A stretch of DNA of 64,000 nucleotides from a virus: IMG/VR virus record IMGVR_UViG_3300002092_000035, positions 1 through 64,000 of that record. One strand, written 5' to 3'. Shown here piece after piece: positions 25,018 through 40,826 of this stretch. The notes under the pieces are model-generated. The model worked only from the letters and a program-made list of their open reading frames with translations, made no database searches and was not told the DNA's origin. How positions within the stretch are numbered: position 1 is the stretch's first letter; each line of letters opens with the position of its first letter. The position numbers and the translations under genes were made by a program.

Positions 25018-25041
25018 GCGAGTATGGCGAAATTGGTAGAC
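25018..25041 (+). pseudogene. 5' remnant of disrupted tRNA-Leu
   Basis: GCGAGTA-TGGCGAAATTGGTAGAC; acceptor partner at 25865-25875. Confidence 0.7.
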
Positions 25042-25084
25042 TAAATGATAAATAAGTGTGTCACCCAATTAAGGATACACTATT

Positions 25085-25756
25085 ATGAATAAAACAGGTC
25101 CCAAAAAAGCAGAACCAATTGTAACAACTGATCTATGTGAATACGGTTGTAACAATACTGCGGCATACAAAAACAAGTCAGGTAAATTGATGTGCGGTCC
25201 GAATGCTGCGTCTTGCCCTGAGATTAAAGAGAAAAATTCAGCAGGCGGCAAAAAAGCATATGCGTCTGCACTCAGACCATCTGCAACAGAAGCATATGAA
25301 ATGTTAAGCGACGATGCCAAATTGAACATGAAATGGAATGCGGGAAAAAGATTCGCAGACTTTTCATATCAAGGCAAAGGTCAGCATAAAAATGCATTAA
25401 TAGCAGAACGCGGATATAAGTGCGAAGGATGCGAACTCACTGAATGGAGAGGTAAACCAATAACATTGGAACTTGAGCACAAAAATGCTGATAGAAAAGA
25501 TAATACAAGAGAAAATCTTGAACTATTATGTCCTAACTGTCATGCTCAAACACCTACTTGGAGACGAGGGTTACAAGGATTGACAAAAGGTTTCAAGAAA
25601 AAAAGATACTCAGATGAAATCATGATTGATGCAATAAAGTCATCGCATACACTTAATGCTGTTTTAGAAAAATTGGATCTACGATATGGTTCAGCTAAGA
25701 CCATAGTTGATCTAATTTCAAAACATAATCTTTCCTTCATGAAAAAAGACGAATAA
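25085..25756 (+). CDS. HNH homing endonuclease
   Basis: CEGC..LELEHKN..N..NLELLCPNCH; paralog of 36962. Confidence 0.88.
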   Translation: MNKTGPKKAEPIVTTDLCEYGCNNTAAYKNKSGKLMCGPNAASCPEIKEKNSAGGKKAYASALRPSATEAYEMLSDDAKLNMKWNAGKRFADFSYQGKGQHKNALIAERGYKCEGCELTEWRGKPITLELEHKNADRKDNTRENLELLCPNCHAQTPTWRRGLQGLTKGFKKKRYSDEIMIDAIKSSHTLNAVLEKLDLRYGSAKTIVDLISKHNLSFMKKDE

Positions 25757-25761
25757 ATTTA

Positions 25762-25846
25762 GGGCATCTGCTGTAATGGTAGCCAGGCTGGTTTTAGAAA
25801 CCAGTGATGTAATGTCGTCTCGGTTCGAGTCCGAGGATGCCCACCA
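25762..25846 (+). tRNA. tRNA-Leu(TAG)
   Basis: Class II cloverleaf, CCA. Confidence 0.9.
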
Positions 25847-25854
25847 AATAAATG

Positions 25855-25875
25855 CGAGTCCCTCTACTCGCACCA
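25855..25875 (+). pseudogene. 3' remnant of disrupted tRNA-Leu
   Basis: CGAGTCCCTC-TACTCGC-ACCA pairs with 25018-25024. Confidence 0.7.
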
Positions 25876-25880
25876 AATAT

Positions 25881-25992
25881 GTCAGAGTAGCCCAAAGTTT
25901 AGACTGTTTCTTAAATATAAGAGGTTTTCTAACAGATAGAGGCAACCGGTATAAAGGTTCCAGTGAAGGTTTGAGTCCTTCCTCTGACACCA
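25881..25992 (+). ncRNA. tRNA-like RNA (Leu-like body, expanded D loop, no canonical anticodon arm)
   Basis: GTCAGAG/CTCTGAC-ACCA, T arm GAAGG-TTTGAGT-CCTTC. Confidence 0.55.
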
Positions 25993-26079
25993 AAATATCC
26001 ACTCGGTTCGAGTCCGAGCTAGGCATGGGGATGGCCTCCTATTGTTGAAGTGCTCACCGGGAGCGGATACTAAATCTAT

Positions 26080-26157
26080 GCCACTCTAGTGTTAGCGGTT
26101 AAAGCACACAAGTTTGTGGAACTTGGCGGGTAGGTTCGAATCCTACGAGTGGTACCA
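26080..26157 (+). tRNA. tRNA-His(GTG), no G-1, A73
   Basis: GCCACTC/GAGTGGT-ACCA preceded by T. Confidence 0.88.
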
Positions 26158-26158
26158 A

Positions 26159-26770
26159 TCAAAGTCTCATCTCAATGAGATGAGGATACTTTTTAGATAG
26201 AGCATCTAGGGTGATGCCTATGAAAGATAATGAAAATATAGAACGAACAGTCTCGATGTTTTCCACACTGTGGTATTGTTTGACATCTAGCCCATACCAT
26301 GATTGATCATTCATTTGGTAGATGCGATCTATCTCAGAACCGGCATATTTCATTTCTCCTGCAGCTAATGCATATCCTTCTTTATCATACTGATTATAAG
26401 TGATAGTCCTTACTTCGGTTCCTCCAGGAGAGAGTATGTAATTCAAAGTAGTGATCCTATACTGATCGGTGTGAGGGGGATATCTTGCTACAATAGAGGT
26501 ATCCTCATTTATTAAGCTTATTCCTCCAACATGTACGGTTTCTTCGAACAGATGACCGTACTCTTTTCTTCCTAACTCAGTCAATTCGCTGCTGCCTAGA
26601 TATGAACAAAATGCTAAGTTTTTTTCATTAGGATAATTACTATAAACCCAATGTCTGACATTGTTTATATAAACCATATCTTCTTCGGTTTTTGGTCTGT
26701 TGGCTATTTGGTTAAGTGACTCAAGTATTTCTTCACTAGGTTTAGGAAGATTCAATTTTAAATAGTTCAT
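26159..26770 (-). CDS. cupin/2OG-Fe(II)-like protein
   Basis: PHTD...HSVEN..R; likely start 26770; similar to 20386. Confidence 0.6.
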   Translation of the reverse strand: MNYLKLNLPKPSEEILESLNQIANRPKTEEDMVYINNVRHWVYSNYPNEKNLAFCSYLGSSELTELGRKEYGHLFEETVHVGGISLINEDTSIVARYPPHTDQYRITTLNYILSPGGTEVRTITYNQYDKEGYALAAGEMKYAGSEIDRIYQMNDQSWYGLDVKQYHSVENIETVRSIFSLSFIGITLDALSKKYPHLIEMRL

Positions 26771-26782
26771 ACAAGTATTTAT

Positions 26783-26866
26783 GCCCCGGTGGTGAAATGG
26801 GAGACACAGCAGACTCAAAATCTGCCGCTGCAAGGCGTGTTGGTTCGAGTCCGACCCGGGGCACCA
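26783..26866 (+). tRNA. tRNA-Leu(CAA)
   Basis: Class II cloverleaf. Confidence 0.92.
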
Positions 26867-26875
26867 AAAGTTTAC

Positions 26876-26910
26876 GGTCCTGTAGCTCAACGGTAGTGCG
26901 GTGTCCTTAA
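26876..26910 (+). pseudogene. 5' half of a truncated tRNA (ends in anticodon loop CTTA)
   Basis: GGTCCTG-TAGCTCAACGGTAGTGC-GGTGTC-CTTAA with no 3' half. Confidence 0.65.
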
Positions 26911-26949
26911 TTCTAATCTAAGATAAATAATCATAGCAGGAGAAATGCC

Positions 26950-27597
26950 ATGATTAGAACAAAATTGCTTTGTGAGAAATGCAACATTGAAATTAGTAAA
27001 TCAAATTTCAAGAAGCATGATTTATCATGCGATGGTCCTAAAATAAAAAAGATTAGAGGAATTGATTTTGATCCTAATCATGGATATAAGAACGGAACAA
27101 GAAAGGCATGGAACTTTGGTCTTACGGATGAAACTGATAAGAGAGTAAAAAGCCTTAACGACAAAGTGAGAGAGACAAAATCCAAGAATGATTATTCGGG
27201 ATGGAATCATTCTGATAAAACAAAAGAAACTCTTTCAATACTAGCTTGTTCTAGGTTAGCAAAGCATTCAAAATATTCTAAGAATGTTGAGTATAAACCA
27301 GGTATAATATTAGAATCTTCTTATGAAGTGAGTGTTGCAGAAATTTTAGATGAATTGAACATAGTGTGGGAAAAAGTAAGGCAAGGATATGTATGGAATG
27401 ATAACGGTAAACGCCGTAGATATATCCCAGATTTTTATATTCCAAAATACAATGTGTTTCTAGACCCAAAAAATGATTACCTGATCAACAAAGATAAGGT
27501 CAAAATAGAAAGTGCAATGGCTATGAATAATATAGTGGTTCACGTTCTATCAGCATCTCAAATTAATCGCGAATACATATCAAGTTTATTTCTGTAG
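26950..27597 (+). CDS. PD-(D/E)XK-type homing endonuclease
   Basis: N-terminal CxxC..H..C, NUMOD-like, ESSYE..YIPDFY..LDPK. Confidence 0.8.
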   Translation: MIRTKLLCEKCNIEISKSNFKKHDLSCDGPKIKKIRGIDFDPNHGYKNGTRKAWNFGLTDETDKRVKSLNDKVRETKSKNDYSGWNHSDKTKETLSILACSRLAKHSKYSKNVEYKPGIILESSYEVSVAEILDELNIVWEKVRQGYVWNDNGKRRRYIPDFYIPKYNVFLDPKNDYLINKDKVKIESAMAMNNIVVHVLSASQINREYISSLFL

Positions 27598-27615
27598 TTT
27601 AACAGTAACGATTTT

Positions 27616-27707
27616 GGACGGGCATCTGGTGGTGGCAAGGGTCTTATAATCCCTTTGGTCAGCTGATTACTGATTTGCTGAGAGTTCGATCCTCTCCCTG
27701 TCTACCA
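27616..27707 (+). tRNA. tRNA-Ile(TAT) with long variable arm
   Basis: GGACGGG/CCTGTCT-ACCA; AGGGT-CTTATAA-TCCCT. Confidence 0.75.
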
Positions 27708-27815
27708 ACATTCACGCTGCCCTGACTGCGAAGAGGGGAACTCGCTACCCGCAAGGGAAAAGTTGGAACAAGACAGCGGGTCCAACAGCGTGACACTATT
27801 TTAGAAAGAGGAAAA

Positions 27816-28046
27816 ATGTCTAGAAAAGCTGATCTAAAGGATGATCTGAATAAGCATACACTGACATATGTCAAGCATACAGTTGAAGAGATTAAAAGGT
27901 TGCGACACTGGTTTGCCGGATTCCAAGCAGCAGGTGGCACCCTTCCGGCATGTGAACAGAGTTTTAGTGCGTTGCACAAAGCACACATTCTGTTAGACGA
28001 CTATGCAAGTTTGATAGAAAAACACAGAAAGCTTGATAAAGACTAG
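27816..28046 (+). CDS. hypothetical protein
   Basis: GAGG RBS. Confidence 0.55.
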   Translation: MSRKADLKDDLNKHTLTYVKHTVEEIKRLRHWFAGFQAAGGTLPACEQSFSALHKAHILLDDYASLIEKHRKLDKD

Positions 28047-28114
28047 CCGATCATCGTTGATCGTGGCATAAATAGTGTCATAGGTTTTGCCTATAACACA
28101 CAGAGAGTCACCCA

Positions 28115-28483
28115 ATGAAAAAAATATTCGTAGCACTAGCAGTGCTATTGTCCATATGGACACCGTCTGTATCCTTTGCTAATCCTAATGAAGGAGTTGA
28201 CAGATATGTTTTCTTACAAAAAACGATTGAACGCAAAGATGTTCGTATAATAGTAGTAACATACAAATCATACGGCGAACTTGAAGCAGCAGTAAGGTCG
28301 CACATCGGTGCTGACCCAAAATATAGTGCTATCAGGGCTCATAGAGTCCAAGCATTCAGCGTCCTTCAGAAGCCCAACTACGATGTATGTACTATTCACA
28401 TGATTGACCCTATCATCTCATATGAGCCTGAATATATAGGACACGAGTTGATGCACTGTGTATACGGTGAATTTCACAAATAA
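28115..28483 (+). CDS. secreted HExxH-containing protein
   Basis: Signal peptide; GHELMHC. Confidence 0.65.
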   Translation: MKKIFVALAVLLSIWTPSVSFANPNEGVDRYVFLQKTIERKDVRIIVVTYKSYGELEAAVRSHIGADPKYSAIRAHRVQAFSVLQKPNYDVCTIHMIDPIISYEPEYIGHELMHCVYGEFHK

Positions 28484-28487
28484 TTAC

Positions 28488-28782
28488 GCGCCGATAGCTC
28501 AATTGGTTAGAGCCGACCGCTTACTGTAATATGTGGGCCTCTATGATGGAAACATTATAGATGTAAGTGATCAAATTCGGGGAACCCTTTCAAATGGCGA
28601 TCCCGAGCCAAGCCCTGCAAAGGGAAGGTGTAGAGACTAGACGGTCACCATCTAAGTCGTAAGATATGATGAAGGTATAGTCCAGACCACAAATCGGTCG
28701 TCTTTTATATGACCGAGTAACGAAAGCTATAGTGGTAAGCATAACGGTCTGGTTGGGGGTTCGAGTCCCTCTCGGCGCACCA
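28488..28782 (+). tRNA. tRNA(CAT), Ile2-like, interrupted by group I intron
   Basis: GCGCCGA/TCGGCGC-ACCA; spliced arm GACCG-CT^CATAA-CGGTC. Confidence 0.85.
28522..28739 (+). mobile_element. group I intron (IC3-like, about 218 nt, no ORF)
   Basis: P AAATTCGGGGAA, Q ATCCCGAGCC, R GTAGAGACTAGACG, S AAGGTATAGTCC, terminal G. Confidence 0.85.
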
Positions 28783-28888
28783 AATATATATACATATGCA
28801 TTTAAGCATAAGTATATATGGGATTTGCTTCCTAATAGGCACGAGATGGGTCACGGTTAGCCCATCACCCTTTAAAAGGATAACAGTA

Positions 28889-29107: not shown

Positions 29108-29671
29108 ATGCCCGTATTGGCTTTAGATATCTCAGGTATACCCCGGACTTGGGTTTCACACGATGACGCAATCACCTATCACGCGAAGAATTTAGTAGCT
29201 TGGTCTCTAGGCGATGTAGTTGCTAGATACCGGGGAGGAGTTCAAAAGAATGGTACCCAGAGTTATCTTGAAACTCCGAGCATCATCGCTGTAAAAGGCA
29301 TCGGTTTTGATTTCCGCAAACACAACAGGGTCATATTGACCAACAAGACGCTATTTGCTAGAGATCGTAGCGTCTGTGCTTACTGTGGCAAACATCATTC
29401 TAATCACGCTGGATTGAGTCGCGATCATATCATACCTAGATATCATGGCGGCACAGATGAGTGGATGAATGTTGTTACTTCGTGTAAGCCTTGTAATCAA
29501 AAGAAAGGATGTCTGACGCTGAAACAAGCGAAGATGGAACTGATCTATGTTCCATACGAGCCTAATCACTACGAACATCTGCTCTTACAGAATAGACATG
29601 TTCTCGCTGATCAAATGGATTATCTGCTTGCAGGTGTGCCTAAGCACAGCAGAATTATTTCTATGAACTAG
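29108..29671 (+). CDS. HNH nuclease (McrA-like family)
   Basis: LFARD..CAYCG..DHIIP..GG..W.NVVTSCKPCN.KKG. Confidence 0.88.
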   Translation: MPVLALDISGIPRTWVSHDDAITYHAKNLVAWSLGDVVARYRGGVQKNGTQSYLETPSIIAVKGIGFDFRKHNRVILTNKTLFARDRSVCAYCGKHHSNHAGLSRDHIIPRYHGGTDEWMNVVTSCKPCNQKKGCLTLKQAKMELIYVPYEPNHYEHLLLQNRHVLADQMDYLLAGVPKHSRIISMN

Positions 29672-30575: not shown

Positions 30576-32504
30576 ATGCAAAAGAAAAAACTGACCTTTG
30601 TCAACCCTAATTTTCAACAAGGCCCAAGAGAATTTAATGCGTATTATCTTCCTTATACGACCGGCGTGTTGTGGAGCTATGCGATACAATTTGAAAATAT
30701 CAGAGATAATTACTCCTTAGGTGGGTTCATCTGGCGACGCGATGATATACAAACTGTAATAGAATCTCTCATGGATAGCGATATTGTTGTGCTATCTACA
30801 TACATATGGAATAGGTCTTACAATCATGTTGTCGGTAGAGAATTAAAAAAAGCCAATCCTAACGTGTTTATAATGGCAGGAGGTCCGGAACCGCCGGTAT
30901 CCGATCCCAACTTCTTTGAGCGGTTTCCGTATATAGATGTCTGTGGGGTCCAGGAAGGGGAACGGTCTTTCACTGCGGTCCTAGAAGAACATCTTAAAGA
31001 GAATCCTGATTATACTCATATCAAAGGATTGTTGGTAAATGATAACGGCAAGACGATCAACACTGGACCCGCTGTAAGAATAGAAAAGTTAGATGACATT
31101 CCTAGCCCGTACCTTACAGGAATTTTTGATGATCTTGTCAGAGAAAATCCAGATATCAACTGGAACGTTACTGTAGAAACGAATCGCGGATGTCCCTATA
31201 TGTGCACCTTTTGTGACTGGGGAAGTCTGACCTATAGTAAAGTAAAGAAGTTTGACATAGAACGGGTGTTTAAGGAACTAGATTGGGCGGGCCAACAGGA
31301 ATGTGACTATTTACATTTTACTGATGCTAACTTCGGCATCTTTCCTGAACGTGACATGTCTATTGCAAAGAAACTCGTAGCTGTTCAGAAAGAATACAAT
31401 AATCCTAAGACATATGGCATGGCTTGGGCAAAAAACCAGAAGAAAGAAGTCGTTGATATCGTCAGAGTGTTGATGAATGAAGGCGGCAACAAGATTGGTC
31501 TCAATCTTTCAGTACAGACAATGGATGAGAACACCCTAGATATCATTAAACGAAAAAATCTGGGAATGAACCAAATTGAAGAAGTATTCCAACTGTGTGA
31601 AGAGAATGGTATTCCTTTATTTACTGAATTGATTTTGGGCCTGCCAGGGGAAACACTTGAAACTTGGAAGAATAACTTCTACGCATTGTATAAAGCAGGT
31701 AACCATACTGGTATTACTGTATATCAAGCACAGTTGCTTGAGAATGCAGAGATGAACCTTACCCAGAAGCAAGAGTATGATCTAAAGGGGCAAATTGTAT
31801 ATGATTATCTAGTAGGAACGTACAACGAACACGAACTGCGTGAAGGCGTTGAAGTAGTAGTATCTACTAGGGACCTTACTCCCGAGAAGATGAATCAAGC
31901 ACAGGTTCATTCTTGGTATCAGAATACTTTTCATATTGACGGTATCACCAATTACATCAGTCGTGCATTATATAAACTGTATGGAATAGAATACGCTGAT
32001 TTCTATGAAGGACTATTTGAACATATCAAAACTGATTTCTGGCTAAATTCAGAAGTAGAACGTATCTCAAAGTATTTTCGAGGATGGGGAGAACAAGGTG
32101 CTATCAATCACCCTCCTATTCAAGGCATTGAGATTCACGGACACAACCTGATCTATTCAACAATCATCAACATCAGTAGCCAAAATAAACATGACCACAT
32201 CTTAGATGTAGTAGAGTCTTATCTTCGTAAAACTTTCGTCATTGAAGAATCGCTATTACAAGATATGATGACCCTGCAACGAAACTATCTGATAGACCAT
32301 GTTAATATCAAATCCTATCCTAAAATAATTAAGTTTAAACATGATATAGTAGGGTATGTACAAGGACAATGTGATATTGATACTCCTGCTGAATATGAAT
32401 TTGATTTTCCAGAAGACAAAGACATGAATCTAAAAAGATTCTGTGAACAACTTTTCTTCGCTCGCCGCAGGAATTTTGGTAAAGCGTGGTTAACTAAGTT
32501 GTAA
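30576..32504 (+). CDS. B12-binding radical SAM protein
   Basis: STYIWN, GGPE, ETNRGCPYMCTFC, DANFG. Confidence 0.88.
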   Translation: MQKKKLTFVNPNFQQGPREFNAYYLPYTTGVLWSYAIQFENIRDNYSLGGFIWRRDDIQTVIESLMDSDIVVLSTYIWNRSYNHVVGRELKKANPNVFIMAGGPEPPVSDPNFFERFPYIDVCGVQEGERSFTAVLEEHLKENPDYTHIKGLLVNDNGKTINTGPAVRIEKLDDIPSPYLTGIFDDLVRENPDINWNVTVETNRGCPYMCTFCDWGSLTYSKVKKFDIERVFKELDWAGQQECDYLHFTDANFGIFPERDMSIAKKLVAVQKEYNNPKTYGMAWAKNQKKEVVDIVRVLMNEGGNKIGLNLSVQTMDENTLDIIKRKNLGMNQIEEVFQLCEENGIPLFTELILGLPGETLETWKNNFYALYKAGNHTGITVYQAQLLENAEMNLTQKQEYDLKGQIVYDYLVGTYNEHELREGVEVVVSTRDLTPEKMNQAQVHSWYQNTFHIDGITNYISRALYKLYGIEYADFYEGLFEHIKTDFWLNSEVERISKYFRGWGEQGAINHPPIQGIEIHGHNLIYSTIINISSQNKHDHILDVVESYLRKTFVIEESLLQDMMTLQRNYLIDHVNIKSYPKIIKFKHDIVGYVQGQCDIDTPAEYEFDFPEDKDMNLKRFCEQLFFARRRNFGKAWLTKL

Positions 32505-32525
32505 GTAAAATATCTTCACCGGCAA

Positions 32526-32753
32526 ATGGCAATACAGATACGACAGCTTAAAGAATGGAAAGGATACAATTCCTTTACCGTTCCCATTGTATTTGGAATT
32601 CCTATCCCTGACCAAAACGATGTAAATCTATTGAAATCTCAGTATCCAGGAAACTATCATGTTCTGCTGACAACAATCGGAAATTCCTTTGAGAATTGTA
32701 TCGTGTTTGATGATCCAACAGAAGAATCGTTTTTTATATTGAAGTATCTATAG
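32526..32753 (+). CDS. small protein related to the 48.6-50.5 kb paralog family
   Basis: C-terminus VFDDPTEESFFILKYL. Confidence 0.55.
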   Translation: MAIQIRQLKEWKGYNSFTVPIVFGIPIPDQNDVNLLKSQYPGNYHVLLTTIGNSFENCIVFDDPTEESFFILKYL

Positions 32754-32768
32754 ACGATAAGTATTATC

Positions 32769-33755
32769 ATGACTAAAAGAATATTGGTATGCGGGGCCGG
32801 TGGATTTATCGGAACACATTTAGTAGAGAGCCTTAAGGCACAAGGTCACTATGTGGTAGGTGCAGATTTAAAAAAGCCACAATACACTACTTCATCAGCA
32901 GATAGATTTTATCAATCATGTGATCTCCGTGACAAGTATTATGTAGAGAAGCTGTTTATACAAGAATCTTTTGATGAGATTTATCAGTTGGCGGCAGATA
33001 TGGGTGGCGCTGGATATGTTTTCACTGGAAAACATGATGCAGATATCATGCACAACTCAGCGTCTATCAATCTAAACATCGTATCTGCGATGATAGCACA
33101 CAATGTAAAGAAAGTGTTTTATAGCTCGTCTGCGTGTATTTATCCTGAATACAAACAACTGGATCCAGATAATGTCTGCCTAGAAGAATCAGCAGCATAC
33201 CCAGCAGCCCCGGACAGCGAATACGGTTGGGAGAAGTTATTCTCTGAGAGATTGTATATGAATTATGCTAAGAACTACGGCATAGATGCCCGTATAGCAC
33301 GATTTCATAATGTATTTGGACCTAAAGGTTCTTGGAATAATGGCAAAGAGAAGTCTCCTGCTGCACTGTGCCGAAAGGTAGCAATGGCAAACGAAGGGGA
33401 TGAAATAGAAGTCTGGGGTAACGGAACTCAGTCTAGATCATTCCTTTACATAGACGAGTGTATTGAAGGCATACACAGAATTATGGAAAGCGACTATGCG
33501 TCGCCGCTAAATTTAGGAAGCGAACGCCAGGTATCTATCAATGAACTTGTGGGCATAATATCTAGGGCAGCAAACAAAAAAGTAAAAATCAATAATGTTC
33601 CTGGACCGACGGGTGTCATGGGTAGAACATCAGACAATAATCTTCTGCGTAAAACATTAGACTGGACCCCTGATGAAGATTTAGAAGGGGGCATATTAAA
33701 GACTTATCGTTGGATCGCCGAACAAATAGCACAAGGGAAATCAGATGAAAATTAA
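32769..33755 (+). CDS. NAD-dependent epimerase (GDP-mannose 3,5-epimerase-like)
   Basis: GAGGFIG, LAADMGG, YSSSACIYP, YGWEK. Confidence 0.9.
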   Translation: MTKRILVCGAGGFIGTHLVESLKAQGHYVVGADLKKPQYTTSSADRFYQSCDLRDKYYVEKLFIQESFDEIYQLAADMGGAGYVFTGKHDADIMHNSASINLNIVSAMIAHNVKKVFYSSSACIYPEYKQLDPDNVCLEESAAYPAAPDSEYGWEKLFSERLYMNYAKNYGIDARIARFHNVFGPKGSWNNGKEKSPAALCRKVAMANEGDEIEVWGNGTQSRSFLYIDECIEGIHRIMESDYASPLNLGSERQVSINELVGIISRAANKKVKINNVPGPTGVMGRTSDNNLLRKTLDWTPDEDLEGGILKTYRWIAEQIAQGKSDEN

Positions 33756-35055
33756 AGTAGTTTACAACTGGATCGGTCCTGCTGGTCCCACTGATAACAA
33801 CTATCTTCCTAATGTGCTGAGTTTTGCACAGGCATTTGATGAAAATAATCATATTCCTCCTCAATGGAATGCAGATTGGACTTGGCAGCAGTTTTTCTCT
33901 CACGGGAATGAACATTTTGAGATTTGTCCTTCAGTAGCAATTAGTGAGAACGATGATAGTCTGTTTGTTTTTCCAGTCGCATTGTCTTGGAGAAATATTA
34001 TTCCAACTTATTATCTCAAAAATTTAGGCATCTTAGAGGCTTCGCGTATCCCAGCGAATATTTTAAACTGTATCAAACATCATAATGGTTATTTCGTTAT
34101 TGATTTTTCAGGGGAAGGTCACGGAATACGGGATACAGACTTTGATCATATGCATTCTTATTTTACTCATCTCAAAATCCCCTTGAGAAAAATTATATAT
34201 ATCACTGGATCATCAAACAGTGCAGATTTGTATGCCAAATACTGTTCAGGTAGAGGTATCTCTGCTACTGATAGGATGAACTTAGTGACTTATGTCAGGG
34301 GAACAGTGCATGTAGTCTCTAAAAGCATAAGTGAACCTGATTATGATAGTGAAACCGTTCCTAAAAAACTTTTCTTGTCTTGGAACAAAAGAACAAGAAA
34401 GCATCGCTTTGATATAGCATTACTGTTAGAGAAGCATGATCTAGTGGATAGAAGCTATCTGAGTTTTCATAATGAAGAGACCGGAATAGGATTCAAAGAA
34501 ACTTATCGTAATATAGGGGGAATTACCGATACGACTTTGGGCATAACACCTAAGGTAATAGATAGATTTGCTTCTAAATTGCCATTAGTGTTAGACGGTG
34601 AAACCAATCTCTATAAGATACTGTTTACTAATTTAGAGGTTACAACTAGACCGTTTTATCAAAATAGTCTGATCAGTCTTATAACAGAGACCCATTTCTA
34701 CGAAGAACATACATGTTTAACCGAAAAGTCATTCAAACAAGCCAAAGAGAAACACCCCTTTATTATCGTAGGCGGCGTAGGATCTCTCAAGTATCTGCGT
34801 GAATTAGGTTTTAAAACCTTTAGTGATTTCTGGGATGAATCTTATGATGATTGTAAGGATCCGGTAGAAAGAATGCAACGCATAGATTCTCTGATCAAAA
34901 ATATCGGTGAATGGACTCCGGAACAACTTCTAGATTTCAGACGAAAGGTCAAACCTATAGTAGAGCATAACTTCAAGGTGTTTGATACCGAAATGGTGAA
35001 AAATGCACTGAGGCTATCATTAAACAAAATCAATGATATAGTTACTGCTGTATAA
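33745..35055 (+). CDS. glycosyltransferase-like protein
   Basis: ITET..TEKSFK..HPF..GFKTF..WDESYD; paralog of 21053. Confidence 0.6.
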   Translation: MKIKVVYNWIGPAGPTDNNYLPNVLSFAQAFDENNHIPPQWNADWTWQQFFSHGNEHFEICPSVAISENDDSLFVFPVALSWRNIIPTYYLKNLGILEASRIPANILNCIKHHNGYFVIDFSGEGHGIRDTDFDHMHSYFTHLKIPLRKIIYITGSSNSADLYAKYCSGRGISATDRMNLVTYVRGTVHVVSKSISEPDYDSETVPKKLFLSWNKRTRKHRFDIALLLEKHDLVDRSYLSFHNEETGIGFKETYRNIGGITDTTLGITPKVIDRFASKLPLVLDGETNLYKILFTNLEVTTRPFYQNSLISLITETHFYEEHTCLTEKSFKQAKEKHPFIIVGGVGSLKYLRELGFKTFSDFWDESYDDCKDPVERMQRIDSLIKNIGEWTPEQLLDFRRKVKPIVEHNFKVFDTEMVKNALRLSLNKINDIVTAV

Positions 35056-35114
35056 AAATATATTGATCAGGCTGTTTGAGCGTAAATATCAATACAAACT
35101 TAATGAGAGGCTAA

Positions 35115-36299
35115 ATGAAAAAAATTGCGATGATTGGTGTTGGTAAGCTAGGCCAAGACTGTGCTGAAATGATGGCAGAGAAGCATGATGTAGTTGGGTA
35201 CGATGTATCACCGAGAAATCCAACTTTTCCAATGAAGGATACCATTAGAGAAGCAGTGGAAGGTAGAGAATTAATCTTTATCGCAGCTCCTACTCCACAC
35301 GATCCTGTCTATGGTGGCGAGACTCCTACGAGTCATCTTCCTAACAAGGACTTTGACTATACGATTGTTAGAGAGATTCTAGCCGAAGTCAACAAGTATG
35401 TTAACCCGACACAACTCGTCGTACTGATCAGCACTGTTCTTCCTGGAACAATTCGCAGAGAACTCCGCCCGGAAATCACCAACGCACGATTCATCTACAA
35501 TCCTTATCTCATCGCAATGGGAACTATCAAGTGGGACATGGTGAATCCTGAAATGGTAATTGTCGGTACTGATGACGGTTCTATCACAGGTGATGCGAAG
35601 GAACTGATTGACTTCTACAAGACATTCATGCAGAACGATCCAAGATACGAAGTTGGTACTTGGGATGAAGCAGAAGCTATCAAGATTTTTTATAACACCT
35701 TCATCTCTGCCAAAGTTGGTATCGTCAACATGATTCAAGATGTCGCTGAAAAGAATGGCAACATGAATGTTGATGTTGTGACAGGAGCACTCGCTCGCTC
35801 AAATTACCGCATTACTGGTCCAGCATACATGCAAGCAGGTATGGGCGATGGCGGAGCCTGTCATCCGCGTGATAATATCGCGCTACGCTACATGGCAGAA
35901 CAACTTGATCTAGGATATGACTTGTTTGATAGCATCATGCGAGCAAGAGAAGTTCAAGCTGAGAACATGGCCATGACTGTTCTTAACTATGGAAAGAACA
36001 TTACAATTGTTGGCAAGGCTTATAAGCCCGGCGTGCATTACACGAATGGTTCTTCTTCTATGCTCGTAGCATATTACATTGAGGAACAAGGTGGAACCGT
36101 CAACTACTATGATGAACACACCGGTGACCTAGATTTTAAGAGTGACACTACTGATGTCTATCTCATTGGCTACTGGGATGATTATGTGAAGGCACTGAAC
36201 TTCCCTGCTAAGTCGGTCGTGATTGATCCTTGGCGAAAGATTGATGATACGCAGCATTCCGGTAAGATCGTTCATTACGGCAATACCCGATTGATGTAA
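35115..36299 (+). CDS. UDP-glucose/GDP-mannose dehydrogenase family
   Basis: GVGKLG, PTP, STVLPGT, AEAIK..N, GGACHPRD. Confidence 0.9.
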   Translation: MKKIAMIGVGKLGQDCAEMMAEKHDVVGYDVSPRNPTFPMKDTIREAVEGRELIFIAAPTPHDPVYGGETPTSHLPNKDFDYTIVREILAEVNKYVNPTQLVVLISTVLPGTIRRELRPEITNARFIYNPYLIAMGTIKWDMVNPEMVIVGTDDGSITGDAKELIDFYKTFMQNDPRYEVGTWDEAEAIKIFYNTFISAKVGIVNMIQDVAEKNGNMNVDVVTGALARSNYRITGPAYMQAGMGDGGACHPRDNIALRYMAEQLDLGYDLFDSIMRAREVQAENMAMTVLNYGKNITIVGKAYKPGVHYTNGSSSMLVAYYIEEQGGTVNYYDEHTGDLDFKSDTTDVYLIGYWDDYVKALNFPAKSVVIDPWRKIDDTQHSGKIVHYGNTRLM

Positions 36300-36961: not shown

Positions 36962-37558
36962 ATGTATTGTGATTATGGCTGCGGACAGCCTTCTCAGTAT
37001 CTGCTTAAGAATGGTAAAAAATGCTGTTCTAAACGACCTTCAGGTTGCCCAGAGATAAAAAAGAAAAATTCTATTTCTACCAAAAAAGCATACGAAGTAG
37101 GGGCGAGACCATCTGCAAAAGATTCATACTTATTATTGAGTGAAAATGCTAAAGCTAGCATGAATTGGAATAAAGAAAATTATTCTTCAACTGAATTTGA
37201 ATACGGTGGACCAGGGAGTCACAAAAAAGCCTTGATCAAGGAACGAGGTCATAAATGTGAAGGTTGTGGATTGACCCGATGGCAGGAATCAATAATTCCT
37301 CTAGAATTAGAACACATCGACGGTGACAACAGAAATAACATAAAAGAAAACCTTAAGTTACTATGTTGTAATTGTCACGCTCTGACTTCTACCTGGCGAG
37401 GAAGAAATATTAATACAGGAAAAATTAAGGTCAGTGACGAAGAACTATTGACAGCATTAAAAGAGTGTAGTAGTATACGAAAGGCCCTACAAAAAGTAGG
37501 ACTTACTCCTAAAGGAGGAAATTATATTAGAGCGAATAAGTTAAAGATGCGCCTGTAG
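36962..37558 (+). CDS. HNH homing endonuclease
   Basis: LELEHIDG..N..NLKLLCCNCH; stop lies inside tRNA-Leu(TAA). Confidence 0.88.
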   Translation: MYCDYGCGQPSQYLLKNGKKCCSKRPSGCPEIKKKNSISTKKAYEVGARPSAKDSYLLLSENAKASMNWNKENYSSTEFEYGGPGSHKKALIKERGHKCEGCGLTRWQESIIPLELEHIDGDNRNNIKENLKLLCCNCHALTSTWRGRNINTGKIKVSDEELLTALKECSSIRKALQKVGLTPKGGNYIRANKLKMRL

Positions 37559-37625
37559 CCCAACCGGCAGAGGCCACAGACTTAAAATCTGTCAAGTATG
37601 AGTTCGAATCTCATCAGGCGCACCA
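37549..37625 (+). tRNA. tRNA-Leu(TAA), short variable arm
   Basis: ACAGA-CTTAAAA-TCTGT, 77 nt. Confidence 0.85.
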
Positions 37626-38081: not shown

Positions 38082-38165
38082 GGGGTAGAAGCATCAAGGT
38101 GATGCCGGGGACTGTAAATCCCCCGTCTTCGGACATGCCTGGTTCGATTCCAGGATACCCCACCA
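38082..38165 (+). tRNA. tRNA-Tyr(GTA)
   Basis: Class II cloverleaf. Confidence 0.88.
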
Positions 38166-38299: not shown

Positions 38300-38334
38300 G
38301 GACATGCCTGGTTCGATTCCAGGATACCCCACCA
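38300..38334 (+). repeat. exact 35-bp duplicate of the tRNA-Tyr 3' end
   Basis: Identical to 38131-38165. Confidence 0.9.
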
Positions 38335-38555: not shown

Positions 38556-38647
38556 GGAGAGTTGCCAGAGTGGCCGAATGGGCTGGTTTGCTAAACCATT
38601 GTACCCCTCAAAGGGTACCGAGGGTTCGAATCCCTCACTCTCCGCCA
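38556..38647 (+). tRNA. tRNA-Ser(GCT)
   Basis: Class II cloverleaf. Confidence 0.92.
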
Positions 38648-38664
38648 ATACACAGGTTGACATT

Positions 38665-39009
38665 ATGAACTTTGAGATAGATCCGGAATTTATAACATCC
38701 ATCTCTGTAGTGACAGAGTATCATCGTGCTAAGGATCCTGCTAATCCAACCCCAGAAGAATTTATGGCCATCATAAAAGATGGACCCGTAAGAAGCACTT
38801 CTTACTCAACTGTAGATCATCCTGAATACGATAAGTTAAGGAATAATCTCGGAGACCTCGGTTATATAAAGATTGAGCGTATGTGGTGGAACGGCGATCG
38901 GGTCCTAAAAAGATTTACATTGAATGGAATCCCGTTCAAAAAGGATGATCAATTTAGCTGTGCTAGCGCGATGAAGCATCATCTAGAATACAAGAGAAAA
39001 TATAAATAG
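38665..39009 (+). CDS. hypothetical protein
   Basis: Likely start 38665. Confidence 0.6.
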   Translation: MNFEIDPEFITSISVVTEYHRAKDPANPTPEEFMAIIKDGPVRSTSYSTVDHPEYDKLRNNLGDLGYIKIERMWWNGDRVLKRFTLNGIPFKKDDQFSCASAMKHHLEYKRKYK

Positions 39010-39263
39010 ACACACTTACACAGAGGATACACACATGAATAAGTCACATTTACCAGCAATGCTGGCCACAAGTTTATTGCTATTCGTATTAGCATCAAAC
39101 GCATATGTCATCTATATGACATACAAACATCCTGATTGGATGGTTCTCACTTACACATTGCCTCCCATCACTTAATTTAAAAAAGGTCATTTTTCGGTTG
39201 ACTTCGGGTATTCGGTTTGCTATATTGAATCATAGACAGACACACACAAACGGAGTTACTCAG

Positions 39264-39611
39264 ATGGCTTATATGAATTCCGAAAAGAAGGCAATCATCG
39301 CTTCTAACTTGAAGCCTGTTCTTAAGAAGTTCGGTGTTAAAGGCAGCCTTTCAGTAGACCATCACTCAAGCATCGTGCTGACTCTCAAGTCCGGCAAGAT
39401 TGAGTTTGGCTCTGATCGTCAGCAAGTGAATCCTTACTGGTTCCACGAGCATTACGATGGTGTTGCTAAGGAGTTTCTGACCGAAGCATTTGCTGCTCTC
39501 AAGAGTGCAGGCTGGTACAACAATACTCGTTCAGAAATTGACTATTTTGACATCGCTTACTATGTTGACATCAACATCGGTAAGTGGAACAAGCCCTATC
39601 AATTTATTTAA
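39264..39611 (+). CDS. hypothetical early protein
   Basis: GGAG RBS after early promoter; NTRSEIDYFDIAYY motif. Confidence 0.7.
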   Translation: MAYMNSEKKAIIASNLKPVLKKFGVKGSLSVDHHSSIVLTLKSGKIEFGSDRQQVNPYWFHEHYDGVAKEFLTEAFAALKSAGWYNNTRSEIDYFDIAYYVDINIGKWNKPYQFI

Positions 39612-39626
39612 TTTAAGGAACATAAA

Positions 39627-39821
39627 ATGGGACTATCTACAGACTATCTCAATGCTGACCCTCTCTACAGACGGGCCCGGCAACTAGGTAACAGGCATGA
39701 CCGGCCTTCTTTTGAAATTCAGCCGGGCGGAAGGATACATCCTCTTGTCACTGTTGCTATTTGGGCAGTGATCGTTCTAAGCACTGGTATCGGTGCCGCG
39801 ATGTATGCCTCAAAACTTTAG
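39627..39821 (+). CDS. small membrane protein
   Basis: C-terminal hydrophobic helix. Confidence 0.5.
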   Translation: MGLSTDYLNADPLYRRARQLGNRHDRPSFEIQPGGRIHPLVTVAIWAVIVLSTGIGAAMYASKL

Positions 39822-39827
39822 AATAAT

Positions 39828-39909
39828 GCGCCGGTGGCAGATCGGTAATGCGGTGGACTGCAAATCCACTCCGAAAGGGTAGTAGGTTCAATTCCTATCC
39901 GGCGCTCCA
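39828..39909 (+). tRNA. tRNA-Cys(GCA)
   Basis: Cloverleaf with small extra arm, U73. Confidence 0.88.
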
Positions 39910-40007
39910 ACTATATATCGGTACCGATTGAAGTCACCTGATGACATAGGGCGGATCGGTTAAAAGAATGCATGTGTGACTGCCGATACCGTTGCATTGA
40001 AGATTAT

Positions 40008-40083
40008 ACCTGCGTAGCTCAGTGGTAGTAGCATCGTGCTGATAACACGAAGGTCGGTAGTTCAACTCTACCCGCAGGTACCA
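40008..40083 (+). tRNA. tRNA-Ile(GAT)
   Basis: Cloverleaf. Confidence 0.9.
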
Positions 40084-40090
40084 ATTCTAA

Positions 40091-40126
40091 GGGTTATAGG
40101 CTCTCCGGCTGAGCATACGACTTTAA
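40091..40126 (+). pseudogene. degenerate 5' half of a tRNA-Lys
   Basis: GGGTTAT..GCTC..GAGC-ATACGA-CTTTAA. Confidence 0.5.
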
Positions 40127-40175
40127 GTTAAATGCTCTAATAGGTATAAATATCAATGCACAACGGAGCATTGAT

Positions 40176-40751
40176 ATGGATAATAGAAAAAAACCCAAGA
40201 CTGAAAAATGGCTTAAGGCTATGGCAGATCGAAGGGGCAATGGAGCTAATCAATATACTAAAGCCAAAGCATTAGGAAACCCAAAACCAGAATTGACTGC
40301 CGAACAAATACAAAAAAGAAAAAACAGTCATACAGGAAAAACTCATACAGAAGAAACTAAAGATAAAATAAGAATCAGTCGTTTAGCATTCCTGCAAGAA
40401 AACCCACACATGGTTCCTTATAAGCTGAATCACTACTCAAAAGGAAGATCATATCCTGAAGAATACTGGAAAGCGGTGCTAGATTCAAACAACTTAATTT
40501 ACGAAGAACAATATCAGATAGGAATATATCAACTAGATTTTGCCTTTGTTGATTTGAAAATAGATTTAGAGATTGATGGCGATCAGCATTATTTAGATCA
40601 ACGGATAGCTGCTAGTGATATTAGAAGAACCAAATATCTTGAAGAATTGGGATGGAAAACGATAAGAGTAAGATGGTCAAACTATAAGAAACTAGCAGAT
40701 AAAAAACAGTTTGTTGATGAAATTGTAAAAGCATTGAGTATGGGCTCGTAG
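40176..40751 (+). CDS. DUF559/Vsr-like homing endonuclease with NUMOD3
   Basis: SYPE..YQLDFA..LEIDGDQH..D..R..L..LGW..IR; stop lies inside tRNA-Lys. Confidence 0.85.
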   Translation: MDNRKKPKTEKWLKAMADRRGNGANQYTKAKALGNPKPELTAEQIQKRKNSHTGKTHTEETKDKIRISRLAFLQENPHMVPYKLNHYSKGRSYPEEYWKAVLDSNNLIYEEQYQIGIYQLDFAFVDLKIDLEIDGDQHYLDQRIAASDIRRTKYLEELGWKTIRVRWSNYKKLADKKQFVDEIVKALSMGS

Positions 40752-40826
40752 GAGAATTGGTAAACCCAGCAGACTTTTAATCTGCCGCGAGAGCATCTGT
40801 CGGTTCGAGTCCGACCGAGCCCACCA
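40742..40826 (+). tRNA. tRNA-Lys(TTT) with class II-like body
   Basis: GCAGA-CTTTTAA-TCTGC plus extra arm. Confidence 0.85.

What the first reader, a model, noticed from the sequence alone, without database searches (positions are those of the whole stretch)
25018..40826. Endonuclease plus replacement-tRNA cassettes that destroy the resident isoacceptor
Seen three times as remnant-nuclease-intact tRNA. (i) Leu-type 5' piece 25018-25041, HNH, tRNA-Leu(TAG), then the matching 3' piece 25855-25875 (GCGAGTA/TACTCGC-ACCA). (ii) A 5' half ending CTTA at 26876, PD-(D/E)XK nuclease, tRNA-Ile(TAT). (iii) A Lys-like 5' half ending CTTT at 40091, DUF559 nuclease, tRNA-Lys(TTT). A fourth HNH (36962) has its stop inside tRNA-Leu(TAA). 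Three passenger tRNAs have swapped architecture (long-arm Ile and Lys, short-arm Leu), and two nuclease ORFs overlap their tRNA. Inference: intron-less homing in which the nuclease cuts the canonical tRNA gene and supplies a cleavage-immune substitute, which would explain the spread of odd phage tRNAs. Known parallel: T4 SegB homing in the tRNA region.
Basis: partly seen in the sequence, partly recalled or inferred. Interest (0 to 1): 0.8.

Follow-up and report, generated by a model that had tools for sequence, protein, structure and literature searches.

The report
Homing nucleases that replace phage tRNA genes
In the tRNA gene row of a giant T4-like phage, selfish nuclease genes have landed inside single tRNA genes, each leaving the front piece of the old gene and sitting just before a complete, different copy of the same tRNA; the layout recurs in related phages and shows how such nucleases can invade a gene the phage needs without costing it that tRNA.

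Summary
Three times the window shows a truncated tRNA 5' piece, a late-promoter-like ATAAATA leader, an intact nuclease gene (HNH, PD-(D/E)XK, DUF559), then a complete tRNA with the same anticodon.

Relatives without the nuclease carry an intact canonical tRNA at each site: Leu(TAG) after Phe, Ile(TAT) after Leu(CAA), Lys(TTT) after Ile(GAT).

I found the same layout in 8 more places in related viral contigs. It involves four nuclease families and also Ile(GAT), Met/Ile(CAT) and probably Pro(TGG). Each family has its own junction position in the tRNA.

For DUF559 the nuclease and its long-arm Lys(TTT) move as one unit: the tRNA is 91% identical between two contigs whose flanks are unrelated. 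For the HNH and PD-(D/E)XK families the nuclease lineage keeps to one isoacceptor, but the downstream tRNA sequence is not co-inherited.

The "swapped architecture" idea is weak:
- Long-arm Ile(TAT) is the norm in this clade.
- Short-arm Leu and long-arm Lys occur without nucleases.
- 30 of 36 odd tRNAs are not next to a nuclease gene.
- The fourth HNH has no remnant.

Cleavage of the old gene and immunity of the new one are inferred, not shown. I rate this a new variant of intronless homing (T4 SegB). I found no published account of this layout.

The parts
25018..25041 (+). 5' remnant (acceptor strand through D-loop) of the resident canonical tRNA-Leu(TAG)
   Evidence: 24/24 identical to the start of Leu(TAG) of L044 and Leu(TAA) of L020/L031. 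It lies in the Leu(TAG) slot after Phe(GAA), as in G006 and G009. G008 has the same left junction GGTAGAC|TAAATGATAAATA.
25042..25756 (+). Leader with GATAAATA (late-promoter-like) and HNH homing endonuclease ORF 25085-25756
   Evidence: Pfam HNH/HNH_3. Homologue in G008 at the same junction, 73% nt by BLAST, 67% by global alignment. Absent from G010, which keeps the same tRNA and remnants.
25762..25846 (+). Complete divergent tRNA-Leu(TAG)' (85 nt) nested between the two remnants
   Evidence: ARAGORN; Rfam 50.5 bits; 98% identical in G010, L090 and L091; only 42% identical to the remnant over the 5' part.
25853..25875 (+). 3' remnant (T-loop, T-stem 3' strand, acceptor 3' strand, CCA) of the old tRNA-Leu(TAG)
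   Evidence: 21/23 identical to the end of Leu(TAG) of L044; TACTCGC pairs with GCGAGTA of the 5' piece. Also present in G010.
26876..26909 (+). 5' half of the resident tRNA-Ile(TAT), broken inside the anticodon after CTTA
   Evidence: Best matches are Ile(TAT) of L044, G008 and G009. L086 has a near-identical remnant and the same break.
26910..27597 (+). Leader with GATAAATA and PD-(D/E)XK homing endonuclease ORF 26950-27597 (N-terminal Cys/His finger)
   Evidence: PHROG endonuclease and resolvase families at 1e-9 to 1e-11. Invariant PDF...DP motif. AF2 plus Foldseek best hit I-Bth0305I. Homologues lie before Ile(TAT) in L086, L087 and L088.
27616..27707 (+). Complete but atypical long-arm tRNA-Ile(TAT)'
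   Evidence: Cloverleaf with long variable arm in the MFE fold, z-score not significant. Not called by ARAGORN; Rfam 25.9 bits. 97% identical copy in L090/L091. Its strands do not pair with the remnant.
36962..37558 (+). Free-standing HNH endonuclease ORF; no tRNA remnant upstream
   Evidence: PHROG HNH 1.8e-29. 77% aa homologue in G008/L025 with a homologous upstream region, before a canonical 87-nt Leu(TAA).
37549..37625 (+). Short-arm (77 nt) tRNA-Leu(TAA); its T8-A9-G10 is the HNH stop codon
   Evidence: ARAGORN and Rfam 61 bits. Orthologues in G010 (79%) and L077, the latter without a nuclease.
40091..40124 (+). Degenerate 5' half of the resident canonical tRNA-Lys(TTT), broken in the anticodon after CTTT
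   Evidence: Same spacer ATTCTAA and first bases GGGT as intact Lys(TTT) after Ile(GAT) in G010. The Ile(GAT)-Lys(TTT) pair is in G008, G009 and G010. Same junction as the Lys remnants of L077 and L078. Sequence similarity itself is weak.
40125..40826 (+). Mobile unit: leader with TATAAATA, DUF559/NUMOD3 endonuclease ORF 40176-40751, and long-arm tRNA-Lys(TTT)' 40742-40826
   Evidence: Pfam DUF559 3e-11. WIN against L077: leader 57%, ORF 76%, tRNA' 91%, remnant 47%, downstream 28%, different neighbours.

Best explanation
These are free-standing homing endonuclease genes, each specialised on one tRNA gene of the phage's own tRNA array.

**Inferred mechanism**
1. In a co-infection, the nuclease cuts the canonical tRNA gene of a phage that lacks it. 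The cut is in the D-loop for the HNH family and in the anticodon loop for the PD-(D/E)XK and DUF559 families.
2. The break is repaired from the invaded genome.
3. The invading 3' end keeps the recipient's own 5' part of the tRNA gene.
4. Synthesis then copies the leader, the nuclease gene and the complete tRNA behind it.
5. Sometimes the old 3' end also survives behind the new tRNA.

**Result.** The layout is old 5' piece, ATAAATA leader, nuclease, full tRNA of the same anticodon. The phage never loses that decoding capacity, which makes a non-splicing insertion into a needed gene tolerable.

**Shown**
- The anatomy.
- Its recurrence in four nuclease families.
- Presence or absence of the nuclease among relatives.
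- Family-specific junction positions.
- Co-mobility of DUF559 with its Lys(TTT).

**Inferred**
- Where each enzyme cuts.
- That the downstream tRNA escapes cutting.
- That the short tRNA pieces serve as homology for repair.
For: **1. Same-isoacceptor nesting in the window, three times**.

**2. Empty sites.**
- G006 and G009 have Phe then intact Leu(TAG).
- G006, G008 and G009 have Leu(CAA)...Ile(TAT).
- G008, G009 and G010 have Ile(GAT) then intact Lys(TTT).

**3. The layout recurs elsewhere.**
- L077, L078 and L079: DUF559 with Lys(TTT).
- L086: PD-(D/E)XK with Ile(TAT).
- G010: a distant PD-(D/E)XK with an Ile(GAT) 5' half and Ile(GAT)'.
- L089: a Pro-like 5' half with Pro(TGG)'.
- L026, L031 and L032: GIY-YIG with Met(CAT).
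- G008: HNH with Leu(TAG).
- Sources.

**4. Junctions are constant within a family.**
- CTT(T)|AGTT in four DUF559 loci.
- CTTA| in two PD-(D/E)XK loci.
- GGTAGAC|TAAATG in two HNH loci.
- End of the anticodon stem |TAAGTTT in the GIY-YIG loci.

**5. The remnants are local, the unit is mobile.** The DUF559 remnants differ between genomes and the contexts differ (after Ile(GAT), Val(TAC), Leu(TAA)). Yet HEG plus tRNA' are conserved, with tRNA' at 91%.

**6. Old 3' ends survive** in WIN (i), G008, G010 and L077 (GCGAGATCACCA pairs with the L077 remnant).

**7. No ribozyme in the cassettes.** The only group I intron hit in 17-45 kb is at 28513-28698.

**8. Precedent.** T4 SegB cuts tRNA genes and spreads itself together with neighbouring tRNA genes (PMC2330249). 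segB is enriched next to tRNAs (PMC13096335).
Against: - No cleavage data; the cut sites are inferred from junctions only.
- The downstream tRNA is not co-inherited with the HNH and PD-(D/E)XK nucleases.
- WIN's Ile(TAT)' exists in L090/L091 without the nuclease or the remnant. It could be a resident gene, with the remnant plus nuclease arriving beside it.
- The WIN and L086 Ile remnants are more alike (about 88% by eye; 74%, whose L086 offsets were slightly off) than their nucleases (66%). That fits a remnant travelling with the nuclease, the reverse of the DUF559 pattern.
- The L078 tRNA' is 80% identical to its remnant in the 5' half, so nothing obvious predicts immunity.
- SegB cuts T4's own tRNA genes in vitro (PMC2330249), so immunity may not be required.
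- Ile(TAT)' is a poor tRNA by ARAGORN and Rfam.
- DUF559 relatives in cultured T4-like phages (Mizar, AB-Navy1, RHph_TM) lie between tRNAs without a visible remnant.
Confidence: 0.7

Rival explanations
1. Collateral debris. Nuclease genes simply land between tRNA genes in a recombination-prone array, and deletions truncate whichever tRNA lies upstream. Same-isoacceptor pairs then reflect pre-existing adjacent isoacceptors such as Leu-Leu or Lys-Lys. They do not reflect targeting of that gene.
For: - The arrays are full of fragments and chimeras unrelated to any present nuclease: the His/Leu chimera and Leu(CAA) 3' piece in G010, the Tyr 3'-end duplicate at 38300-38334, the tRNA-like 25881-25992.
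- Relatives do have Lys(TTT) followed by a long-arm Lys(CTT).
- L090/L091 pair a Trp remnant with Leu(TAG)' after a secondary deletion.
Against: - In eight of ten cassettes the remnant's best or tied-best match is the exact anticodon of the next tRNA, not just the amino acid.
- Junction positions are constant within a nuclease family across unrelated contexts.
- Nuclease-less relatives carry one copy at the site, not tandem copies.
- DUF559 relatives sit next to Lys(TTT) in eight of the nine related contigs (L077-L084; L085, at 34% identity, does not).
Confidence: 0.12
2. Anti-defence tRNA turnover. Nuclease-induced breaks drive local duplication and exchange of tRNA genes, as SegB does for tRNA-Tyr. 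Selection by host tRNA-cutting defences (PARIS or PrrC on Lys(UUU), Septu on Tyr) then keeps divergent or oddly built copies. On this view the remnants are scars of amplification and collapse. The odd architectures are adaptations to host nucleases, not to the homing nuclease.
For: - SegB-dependent tandem amplification of a segB+tRNA-Tyr unit under Septu pressure, with junctions by microhomology at the tRNA 5' end (PMC13096335).
- A phage tRNA-Lys variant neutralises PARIS (PMC11464382).
- Long-arm Lys(TTT) or Lys(CTT) occurs in many relatives without a nuclease.
- cREC_REC (cyclic-phosphate processing) genes sit in the arrays.
Against: - Remnant and downstream tRNA are only 35-65% identical in five of six cassettes, so they are not recent duplicates of one gene.
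- The remnant matches the orthologous resident gene of relatives, not the new copy.
- This rival explains the odd tRNAs better than it explains the nested layout, and it can be true alongside the main explanation.
Confidence: 0.13
3. Decayed intron-split tRNA genes. Each 5' half would be the 5' exon of a tRNA that once carried a group I intron with a nuclease ORF in its anticodon loop, as in the intron-bearing tRNA(CAT) of this same window.
For: - Two breaks lie in the anticodon loop, the classic tRNA intron site.
- A real group I intron interrupts tRNA(CAT) at 28522-28739.
- In relatives the same tRNA(CAT) is instead hit by a GIY-YIG cassette.
Against: - No ribozyme hit in any cassette at E<=1.
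- There is no room for one: the ORFs run into the next tRNA.
- No matching 3' exon. The acceptor and anticodon-stem strands of the remnant do not pair with the downstream tRNA.
- A whole tRNA follows, not a 3' half.
Confidence: 0.03

Closest known systems
T4 SegB (GIY-YIG) intronless homing in the T-even tRNA region (PMC2330249; PMC13096335)
   Same: - A free-standing nuclease gene inside a phage tRNA cluster.
- It cuts tRNA genes of phages that lack it.
- It spreads itself with neighbouring tRNA genes, with loss of the recipient's markers.
- segB is widely co-located with tRNAs.
   Different: - SegB recognises the shared T-loop (GGTTCRANTCC) and cuts the 3' part of many tRNA genes.
- Here three other nuclease folds each keep to one isoacceptor.
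- The junctions lie in the D or anticodon region.
- The target's 5' piece is retained.
- A full copy of the same isoacceptor follows directly. No such nested layout is described for SegB.
SegF, SegG, SegE and MobE intronless homing and marker exclusion in T4 (cited in PMC2330249; PMC2790892; PMC2988022)
   Same: - The nuclease gene lies beside its target gene.
- The donor allele differs from the cut allele and is co-converted.
- Presence of the nuclease is sporadic among relatives.
   Different: - Those replace an allele by homologous flanks and leave no truncated copy.
- Here part of the old gene stays, and the replacement can differ by more than 50% and even in architecture.
Endonuclease ORFs in fungal mitochondria that arrive with a foreign end of the host gene (atp6 of Allomyces; recalled from memory, not checked here), and 'fractured genes' split by homing endonucleases (PMC2677866)
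   Same: The mobile unit brings a working replacement for the part of the gene it disrupts. The displaced native piece remains as a pseudogene.
   Different: - Those involve protein genes, in-frame fusions or split proteins.
- Here a whole RNA gene is supplied and the displaced piece is the 5' part.
Group I intron homing into tRNA anticodon loops (tRNA-Leu, tRNA-fMet with PD-(D/E)XK I-Ssp6803I, tRNA-Ile(CAU) of Azoarcus; review PMC3984707)
   Same: The insertion point is the anticodon loop of a tRNA gene. PD-(D/E)XK nucleases are used. One such intron is present in this window.
   Different: There is no ribozyme and no splicing. Function is kept by a second gene copy rather than by RNA splicing.

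Membership tests
Free-standing homing endonuclease gene (intronless homing) | Encodes a nuclease of a homing-endonuclease family with an intact ORF | tested here: met
   - HNH.
- DUF559+NUMOD3 at 3e-11.
- PD-(D/E)XK by AF2/Foldseek to I-Bth0305I, with an invariant PDF...DP motif.
Free-standing homing endonuclease gene (intronless homing) | Sporadic presence or absence at an otherwise homologous locus in close relatives | tested here: met
   - G010 lacks the HNH but keeps Phe and Leu(TAG)' at 94-98% identity.
- DUF559 is absent from all hydrolase-linked relatives L017-L049.
- The PD-(D/E)XK is absent from G006, G008 and G009 at the Ile(TAT) site.
Free-standing homing endonuclease gene (intronless homing) | The enzyme cuts the nuclease-less allele at or near the insertion site | not testable with these tools
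   Only indirect evidence: family-specific, context-independent junction positions.
Free-standing homing endonuclease gene (intronless homing) | Flanking donor sequence is co-converted with the nuclease gene | tested here: inconclusive
   - Met for DUF559: tRNA' 91% against flanks of 28-47%.
- Not met for HNH and PD-(D/E)XK: tRNA' 38-57% against HEG 66-67%.
Free-standing homing endonuclease gene (intronless homing) | Not embedded in a self-splicing intron or intein | tested here: met
   No Rfam intron hit in the cassettes. The ORFs have their own leaders and start codons.
SegB-type (GIY-YIG, T-loop-directed) tRNA-region nuclease | GIY-YIG catalytic domain | tested here: not met
   The three cassette nucleases are HNH, PD-(D/E)XK and DUF559. 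GIY-YIG cassettes exist only in relatives (L026, L031). WIN's GIY-YIG at 42612-43295 has no evident remnant.
SegB-type (GIY-YIG, T-loop-directed) tRNA-region nuclease | Target is the conserved T-loop at the 3' end of many tRNA genes | tested here: not met
   The left junctions lie in the D-loop or anticodon loop, and each lineage keeps to one isoacceptor. Cleavage itself was not assayed.
Group I intron-encoded endonuclease in a tRNA gene | Ribozyme core and a 3' exon that completes the 5' exon | tested here: not met
   No Intron_gpI hit in the cassettes. The remnant strands do not pair with the downstream tRNA.
Functional tRNA (for the downstream copies) | Cloverleaf with paired acceptor, anticodon loop and T-arm, recognised by tRNA finders | tested here: inconclusive
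   - Leu(TAG)', Leu(TAA) and Lys(TTT)' are called by ARAGORN, score 50-61 bits in Rfam and fold better than shuffles.
- Ile(TAT)' is not called and its fold z-score is -0.15.
- Charging identity was not testable.

The most novel reading that the evidence does not exclude
The nuclease, its leader and a spare tRNA form a self-contained homing cassette. Its only homology requirement is the target tRNA itself: the retained 5' piece and the tRNA' or 3' piece act as portable arms. The cassette could therefore jump into that isoacceptor's gene in any phage, whatever the neighbours. Changes in tRNA build, such as gain or loss of the long variable arm or Leu-type D-arm modules grafted onto Lys and Asn tRNAs, would be selected because they move or remove the nuclease's site. 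That would make homing nucleases a driver of structural diversification of phage tRNAs.
Probability: 0.3. Interest if true: 0.8.

Novelty: new variant of a known kind. Interest (0 to 1): 0.62.

Why it matters
- **A third way to invade a needed gene.** Homing nucleases are known to survive in essential genes by hiding in self-splicing introns or inteins, or by sitting beside the gene. This layout is different: insert into the gene itself and bring, or keep, a second working copy.
- **It accounts for array features.** It explains many of the tRNA fragments and duplicated isoacceptors in large phage tRNA arrays.
- **It predicts testable pairs.** It gives nuclease-target pairs with single-isoacceptor specificity: four nuclease folds against Leu(TAG), Ile(TAT), Ile(GAT), Lys(TTT), Met/Ile(CAT) and Pro(TGG).
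- **It links two fields.** It ties selfish-element dynamics to the current interest in phage tRNAs as counter-defence.
- **It supplies natural test objects.** The chimeric tRNAs, such as Lys or Asn anticodons on a Leu-like long-arm body, are useful for tRNA identity studies.

Tried and rejected
- **Phage collection by DNA.** Megablast of 24900-28800 against the phage collection found nothing.
- **Relatives via the 642-aa protein (30576-32504).** They have no tRNAs nearby. That sugar-gene block sits inside the array only in this phage.
- **The minus-strand ORF 26159-26890** has no relatives in viral contigs.
- **Early reading dropped.** I first took the long-arm Lys(TTT)' to be the positional orthologue of the relatives' long-arm Lys(CTT) before the hydrolase. 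I gave this up when L077 showed a 91% identical tRNA' travelling with the DUF559 gene in another context.
- **Truncated-tRNA search with Rfam** on 40088-40128 gave no tRNA hit. The identity of remnant (iii) therefore rests on position and junction.
- **PDB sequence search** with the 26950 ORF gave nothing useful. The fold search did.
- **Leader-motif scan** of viral contigs found only the three known DUF559 loci plus chance matches.
- **Search for discriminating positions.** Comparing canonical Lys(TTT) genes with nuclease-linked ones by eye, I found no position that separates them.
- **Remnant before G010's long-arm Asn(GTT).** I saw only a CTGTTAA-like string and did not count it.
- **Not attempted.** No sequencing-run look-up or complex prediction.

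Full report
**What the window is.** It is the first 64 kb of a 91-kb IMG/VR viral contig, estimated at about a quarter of a roughly 360-kb phage. ARAGORN finds 32 tRNA genes, all on the + strand and all with encoded CCA. Six nuclease ORFs lie among them:
- HNH 25085-25756
- an unassigned ORF 26950-27597
- HNH_5 29108-29671
- HNH 36962-37558
- DUF559+NUMOD3 40176-40751
- GIY-YIG 42612-43295

I modelled the 26950 ORF from an alignment of seven homologues. Its C-terminal domain has pLDDT around 90. Its best structural match is the PD-(D/E)XK homing endonuclease I-Bth0305I, followed by Vsr, Bax1 and R2 endonuclease domains.

**The observation.** All three remnant-nuclease-tRNA groups are in the sequence.
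- Site (i): 25018-25041 is the acceptor strand, D-stem and D-loop of a Leu tRNA. 25853-25875 is a T-loop, T-stem strand, matching acceptor strand and CCA. Between them lie the HNH gene and a complete 85-nt tRNA-Leu(TAG).
- Site (ii): 26876-26909 is a clean 5' half ending CTTA. It is followed by the PD-(D/E)XK gene and a 92-nt Ile(TAT)-type tRNA at 27616-27707.
- Site (iii): 40091-40124 is a 5' half ending CTTT. It is followed by the DUF559 gene and an 85-nt tRNA-Lys(TTT).

The HNH at 36962 and the DUF559 ORF both end on T8-A9-G10 of the next tRNA. The Ile(TAT) tRNA is not called by ARAGORN and reaches only 25.9 bits in Rfam. It can fold as a long-arm cloverleaf, but no better than shuffled sequence.

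**Relatives.** A small hydrolase gene (40845-41240) behind the Lys tRNA gave 33 related loci. From these I fetched four syntenic arrays: G006, G008, G009 (a complete 360-kb genome with terminal repeats) and G010.

They share this order: Gln Thr Arg Arg Trp His Val Ser Phe Leu(TAG) Leu(CAA) [Lys(TTT)] Thr(CGT) Ile(TAT) Leu(GAG) Asn Thr Arg Ala Pro Val Trp Leu(TAA) Glu Tyr ... Ser Ser Cys Ile(GAT) Lys(TTT) Lys(CTT) hydrolase Met Asp.

Each remnant of the window therefore lies where nuclease-less relatives have one intact canonical gene of that isoacceptor.
- Remnant (i) is 24/24 and 21/23 identical to the two ends of Leu(TAG) of L044.
- Remnant (ii) best matches Ile(TAT) of L044, G008 and G009.
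- Remnant (iii) is degenerate in sequence. It follows Ile(GAT) behind the same 7-nt spacer and first four bases as G010's intact Lys(TTT).

**The layout is general.** I searched viral contigs with each nuclease protein and searched all fetched loci for tRNA halves outside called genes.

*DUF559 family*
- L077 (76% aa), L078 and L079 (61-62%) each have a Lys-type 5' half broken at CTT(T). Next come a conserved leader (AGTT..TGCTCTA..TATAAATA), the nuclease, and a Lys(TTT) gene that the ORF runs into.
- The neighbours differ: after Val(TAC) or Leu(TAA) rather than Ile(GAT). The remnants also differ from genome to genome.
- L077 further keeps the old 3' end (GCGAGATCACCA) behind the new tRNA.
- More distant members (L080-L084) also lie beside Lys(TTT).

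*PD-(D/E)XK family*
- L086 has an Ile(TAT) 5' half broken at the same CTTA, the nuclease, and a 95-nt Ile(TAT).
- L087 and L088 have the nuclease directly before Ile(TAT).
- A 36% relative in G010 has an Ile(GAT) 5' half broken after CTGAT, the nuclease, and a complete Ile(GAT).
- A 33% relative in L089 has a Pro-like 5' half and Pro(TGG).

*GIY-YIG family*
- L026, L031 and L032 have a Met/Ile(CAT) 5' piece cut at the end of the anticodon stem, a leader with CATAAATACAT, the nuclease, and a complete tRNA(CAT).

*HNH family of site (i)*
- G008 has the same left junction (GGTAGAC|TAAATGATAAATA), the nuclease (67-73% nt), a 78-nt Leu(TAG), and then the 3' end of the canonical Leu(TAG).
- G010 keeps seven bases of the 5' piece, the same Leu(TAG)' (98%) and the 3' piece, but has no nuclease. 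The simplest reading is loss of the nuclease.

All leaders carry (T)ATAAATA some 15-25 nt before the start codon. That string matches the T4 late-promoter consensus (from general knowledge).

**What moves.** For DUF559 the answer is clear. Between the window and L077:

| Segment | Identity |
|---|---|
| Remnant | 47% |
| Leader | 57% |
| ORF | 76% |
| tRNA' | 91% |
| Downstream DNA | 28% |

The unit runs from the anticodon-loop junction to the 3' end of the tRNA.

For the other two families the picture differs. The nucleases are 66-67% identical at the DNA level, while the tRNAs behind them are only 38-57% identical. The window's odd Ile(TAT)' is found 97% identical in L090/L091, directly behind Leu(TAG)', without remnant or nuclease. 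The two Ile remnants (WIN, L086) are more alike than their nucleases.

So a nuclease plus passenger tRNA cassette is shown for one family. For the others, the supported statement is narrower: the nuclease lineage is tied to one isoacceptor and sits between a broken and a whole copy of it.

**Mechanism.** The best-supported model is intronless homing into the tRNA gene itself. The constant, family-specific junctions in otherwise unrelated contexts point to a break in the D-loop (HNH) or the anticodon loop (PD-(D/E)XK, DUF559).

The locally different 5' remnants fit strand invasion by the recipient's own broken end. That end would pair imperfectly with the donor's remnant and then copy the leader, the nuclease and the tRNA'. 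The surviving 3' pieces fit re-annealing at the old gene's end.

These steps are inferred, and none could be tested here. I saw no position that separates nuclease-linked Lys(TTT) genes from canonical ones. The L078 tRNA' is 80% identical to its remnant. T4 SegB is reported to cut T4's own tRNA genes in vitro (PMC2330249).

**Odd tRNA architecture.**
- Long-arm Ile(TAT), 91-95 nt, is the normal form in all relatives.
- Long-arm Lys(CTT) or Lys(TTT), short-arm Leu of all anticodons, long-arm Cys, Trp, Thr and Asn occur widely, mostly without an adjacent nuclease.
- The closest homologue of HNH 36962 sits before a canonical 87-nt Leu(TAA).
- Across 444 tRNAs, 6 of 24 nuclease-adjacent ones are odd against 30 of 420 others (odds ratio 4.3, p = 0.009). 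The loci are related and partly chosen through nuclease queries, so this is only a hint.

One lead stands out. G010 has an HNH directly before an 84-nt Asn(GTT). Its D-arm is 17/17 identical to that of the window's Lys(TTT)', and its T-arm is that of canonical Asn. This suggests module exchange between tRNA genes near breaks.

Host tRNA-cutting defences are an equally good explanation for odd phage tRNAs (PMC11464382, PMC13096335).

**Comparison with the known.** T4 SegB is the nearest case: a nuclease inside the tRNA cluster that cuts tRNA genes and spreads with its neighbours (PMC2330249). It is widely co-located with tRNAs and can amplify a segB+tRNA-Tyr unit (PMC13096335).

The present cases differ in four ways:
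- the nuclease fold;
- single-isoacceptor fidelity;
- junctions in the D or anticodon region rather than the T-loop;
- above all, the nested layout of retained target fragment plus full replacement.

Five literature searches found no description of that layout. It is not a decayed tRNA intron: there is no ribozyme and no matching 3' exon. I therefore rate it a new variant of a known kind.

Noticed in passing
window 28488-28782: A tRNA with anticodon CAT (Ile2 or Met type) is interrupted in its anticodon loop by a group I intron of about 218 nt (28522-28739; Rfam Intron_gpI 61 bits). L090/L091 and L027/L028 have the same split gene. G010 has a long-arm Ile(TAT) in this slot. In L026, L031 and L032 a tRNA(CAT) gene is instead hit by a GIY-YIG cassette.
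   Followed up: partly
window 25881-25992 and 25995-26075: A 112-nt CCA-ending tRNA-like element has a 7-bp acceptor and a T-arm but an aberrant middle (Rfam tRNA 26.9 bits). It is followed by an element that starts with the T-arm of Leu(TAG)' and is 83% conserved in G008 behind Leu(CAA). Function unknown.
   Followed up: partly
window 23241-23318: A tRNA-like gene lies in the Arg(TCG) slot of relatives. It has loop CTTCGAA, a good acceptor and T-arm, no normal D-arm and a long extra region. Rfam gives 40.8 bits; ARAGORN does not call it.
   Followed up: no
window 38300-38334: An exact 35-nt copy of the 3' end of tRNA-Tyr (38082-38165) lies 134 nt downstream of that gene. It encloses a CCA-ending structured stretch.
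   Followed up: no
window 17697-17771: A tRNA with anticodon CTA (an amber reader; ARAGORN labels it Pyl) stands apart from the main array. ORFs in the window read normally under table 11.
   Followed up: no
window 30576-36299: A block of sugar-nucleotide genes (epimerase, UDP-glucose dehydrogenase and others) sits inside the tRNA array between Pro(TGG) and Val(TAC). In the syntenic relatives these two tRNAs are 6-42 nt apart. Homologues of the 642-aa protein lie in tRNA-free regions of other phages.
   Followed up: partly
L070/L071 (G010), my coordinates 8594-8669, 12092-12254, 19480-19653: G010 has a His 5' part fused at the T-loop to a Leu 3' end. It also has Thr(TGT) and Ser(TGA) genes whose two halves are separated by about 90-100 nt, which could be short inserts or introns.
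   Followed up: no
window 23736-24143 and relatives: cREC_REC (cyclic-phosphate processing receiver) domain genes are kept inside the tRNA arrays of this phage group. Their ORFs also end on T8-A9-G10 of the next tRNA (Val(GAC)).
   Followed up: no
window 39828-39909 and relatives: tRNA-Cys(GCA) has an extended variable region (82 nt here; 82-93 nt in relatives) without any adjacent nuclease gene.
   Followed up: no
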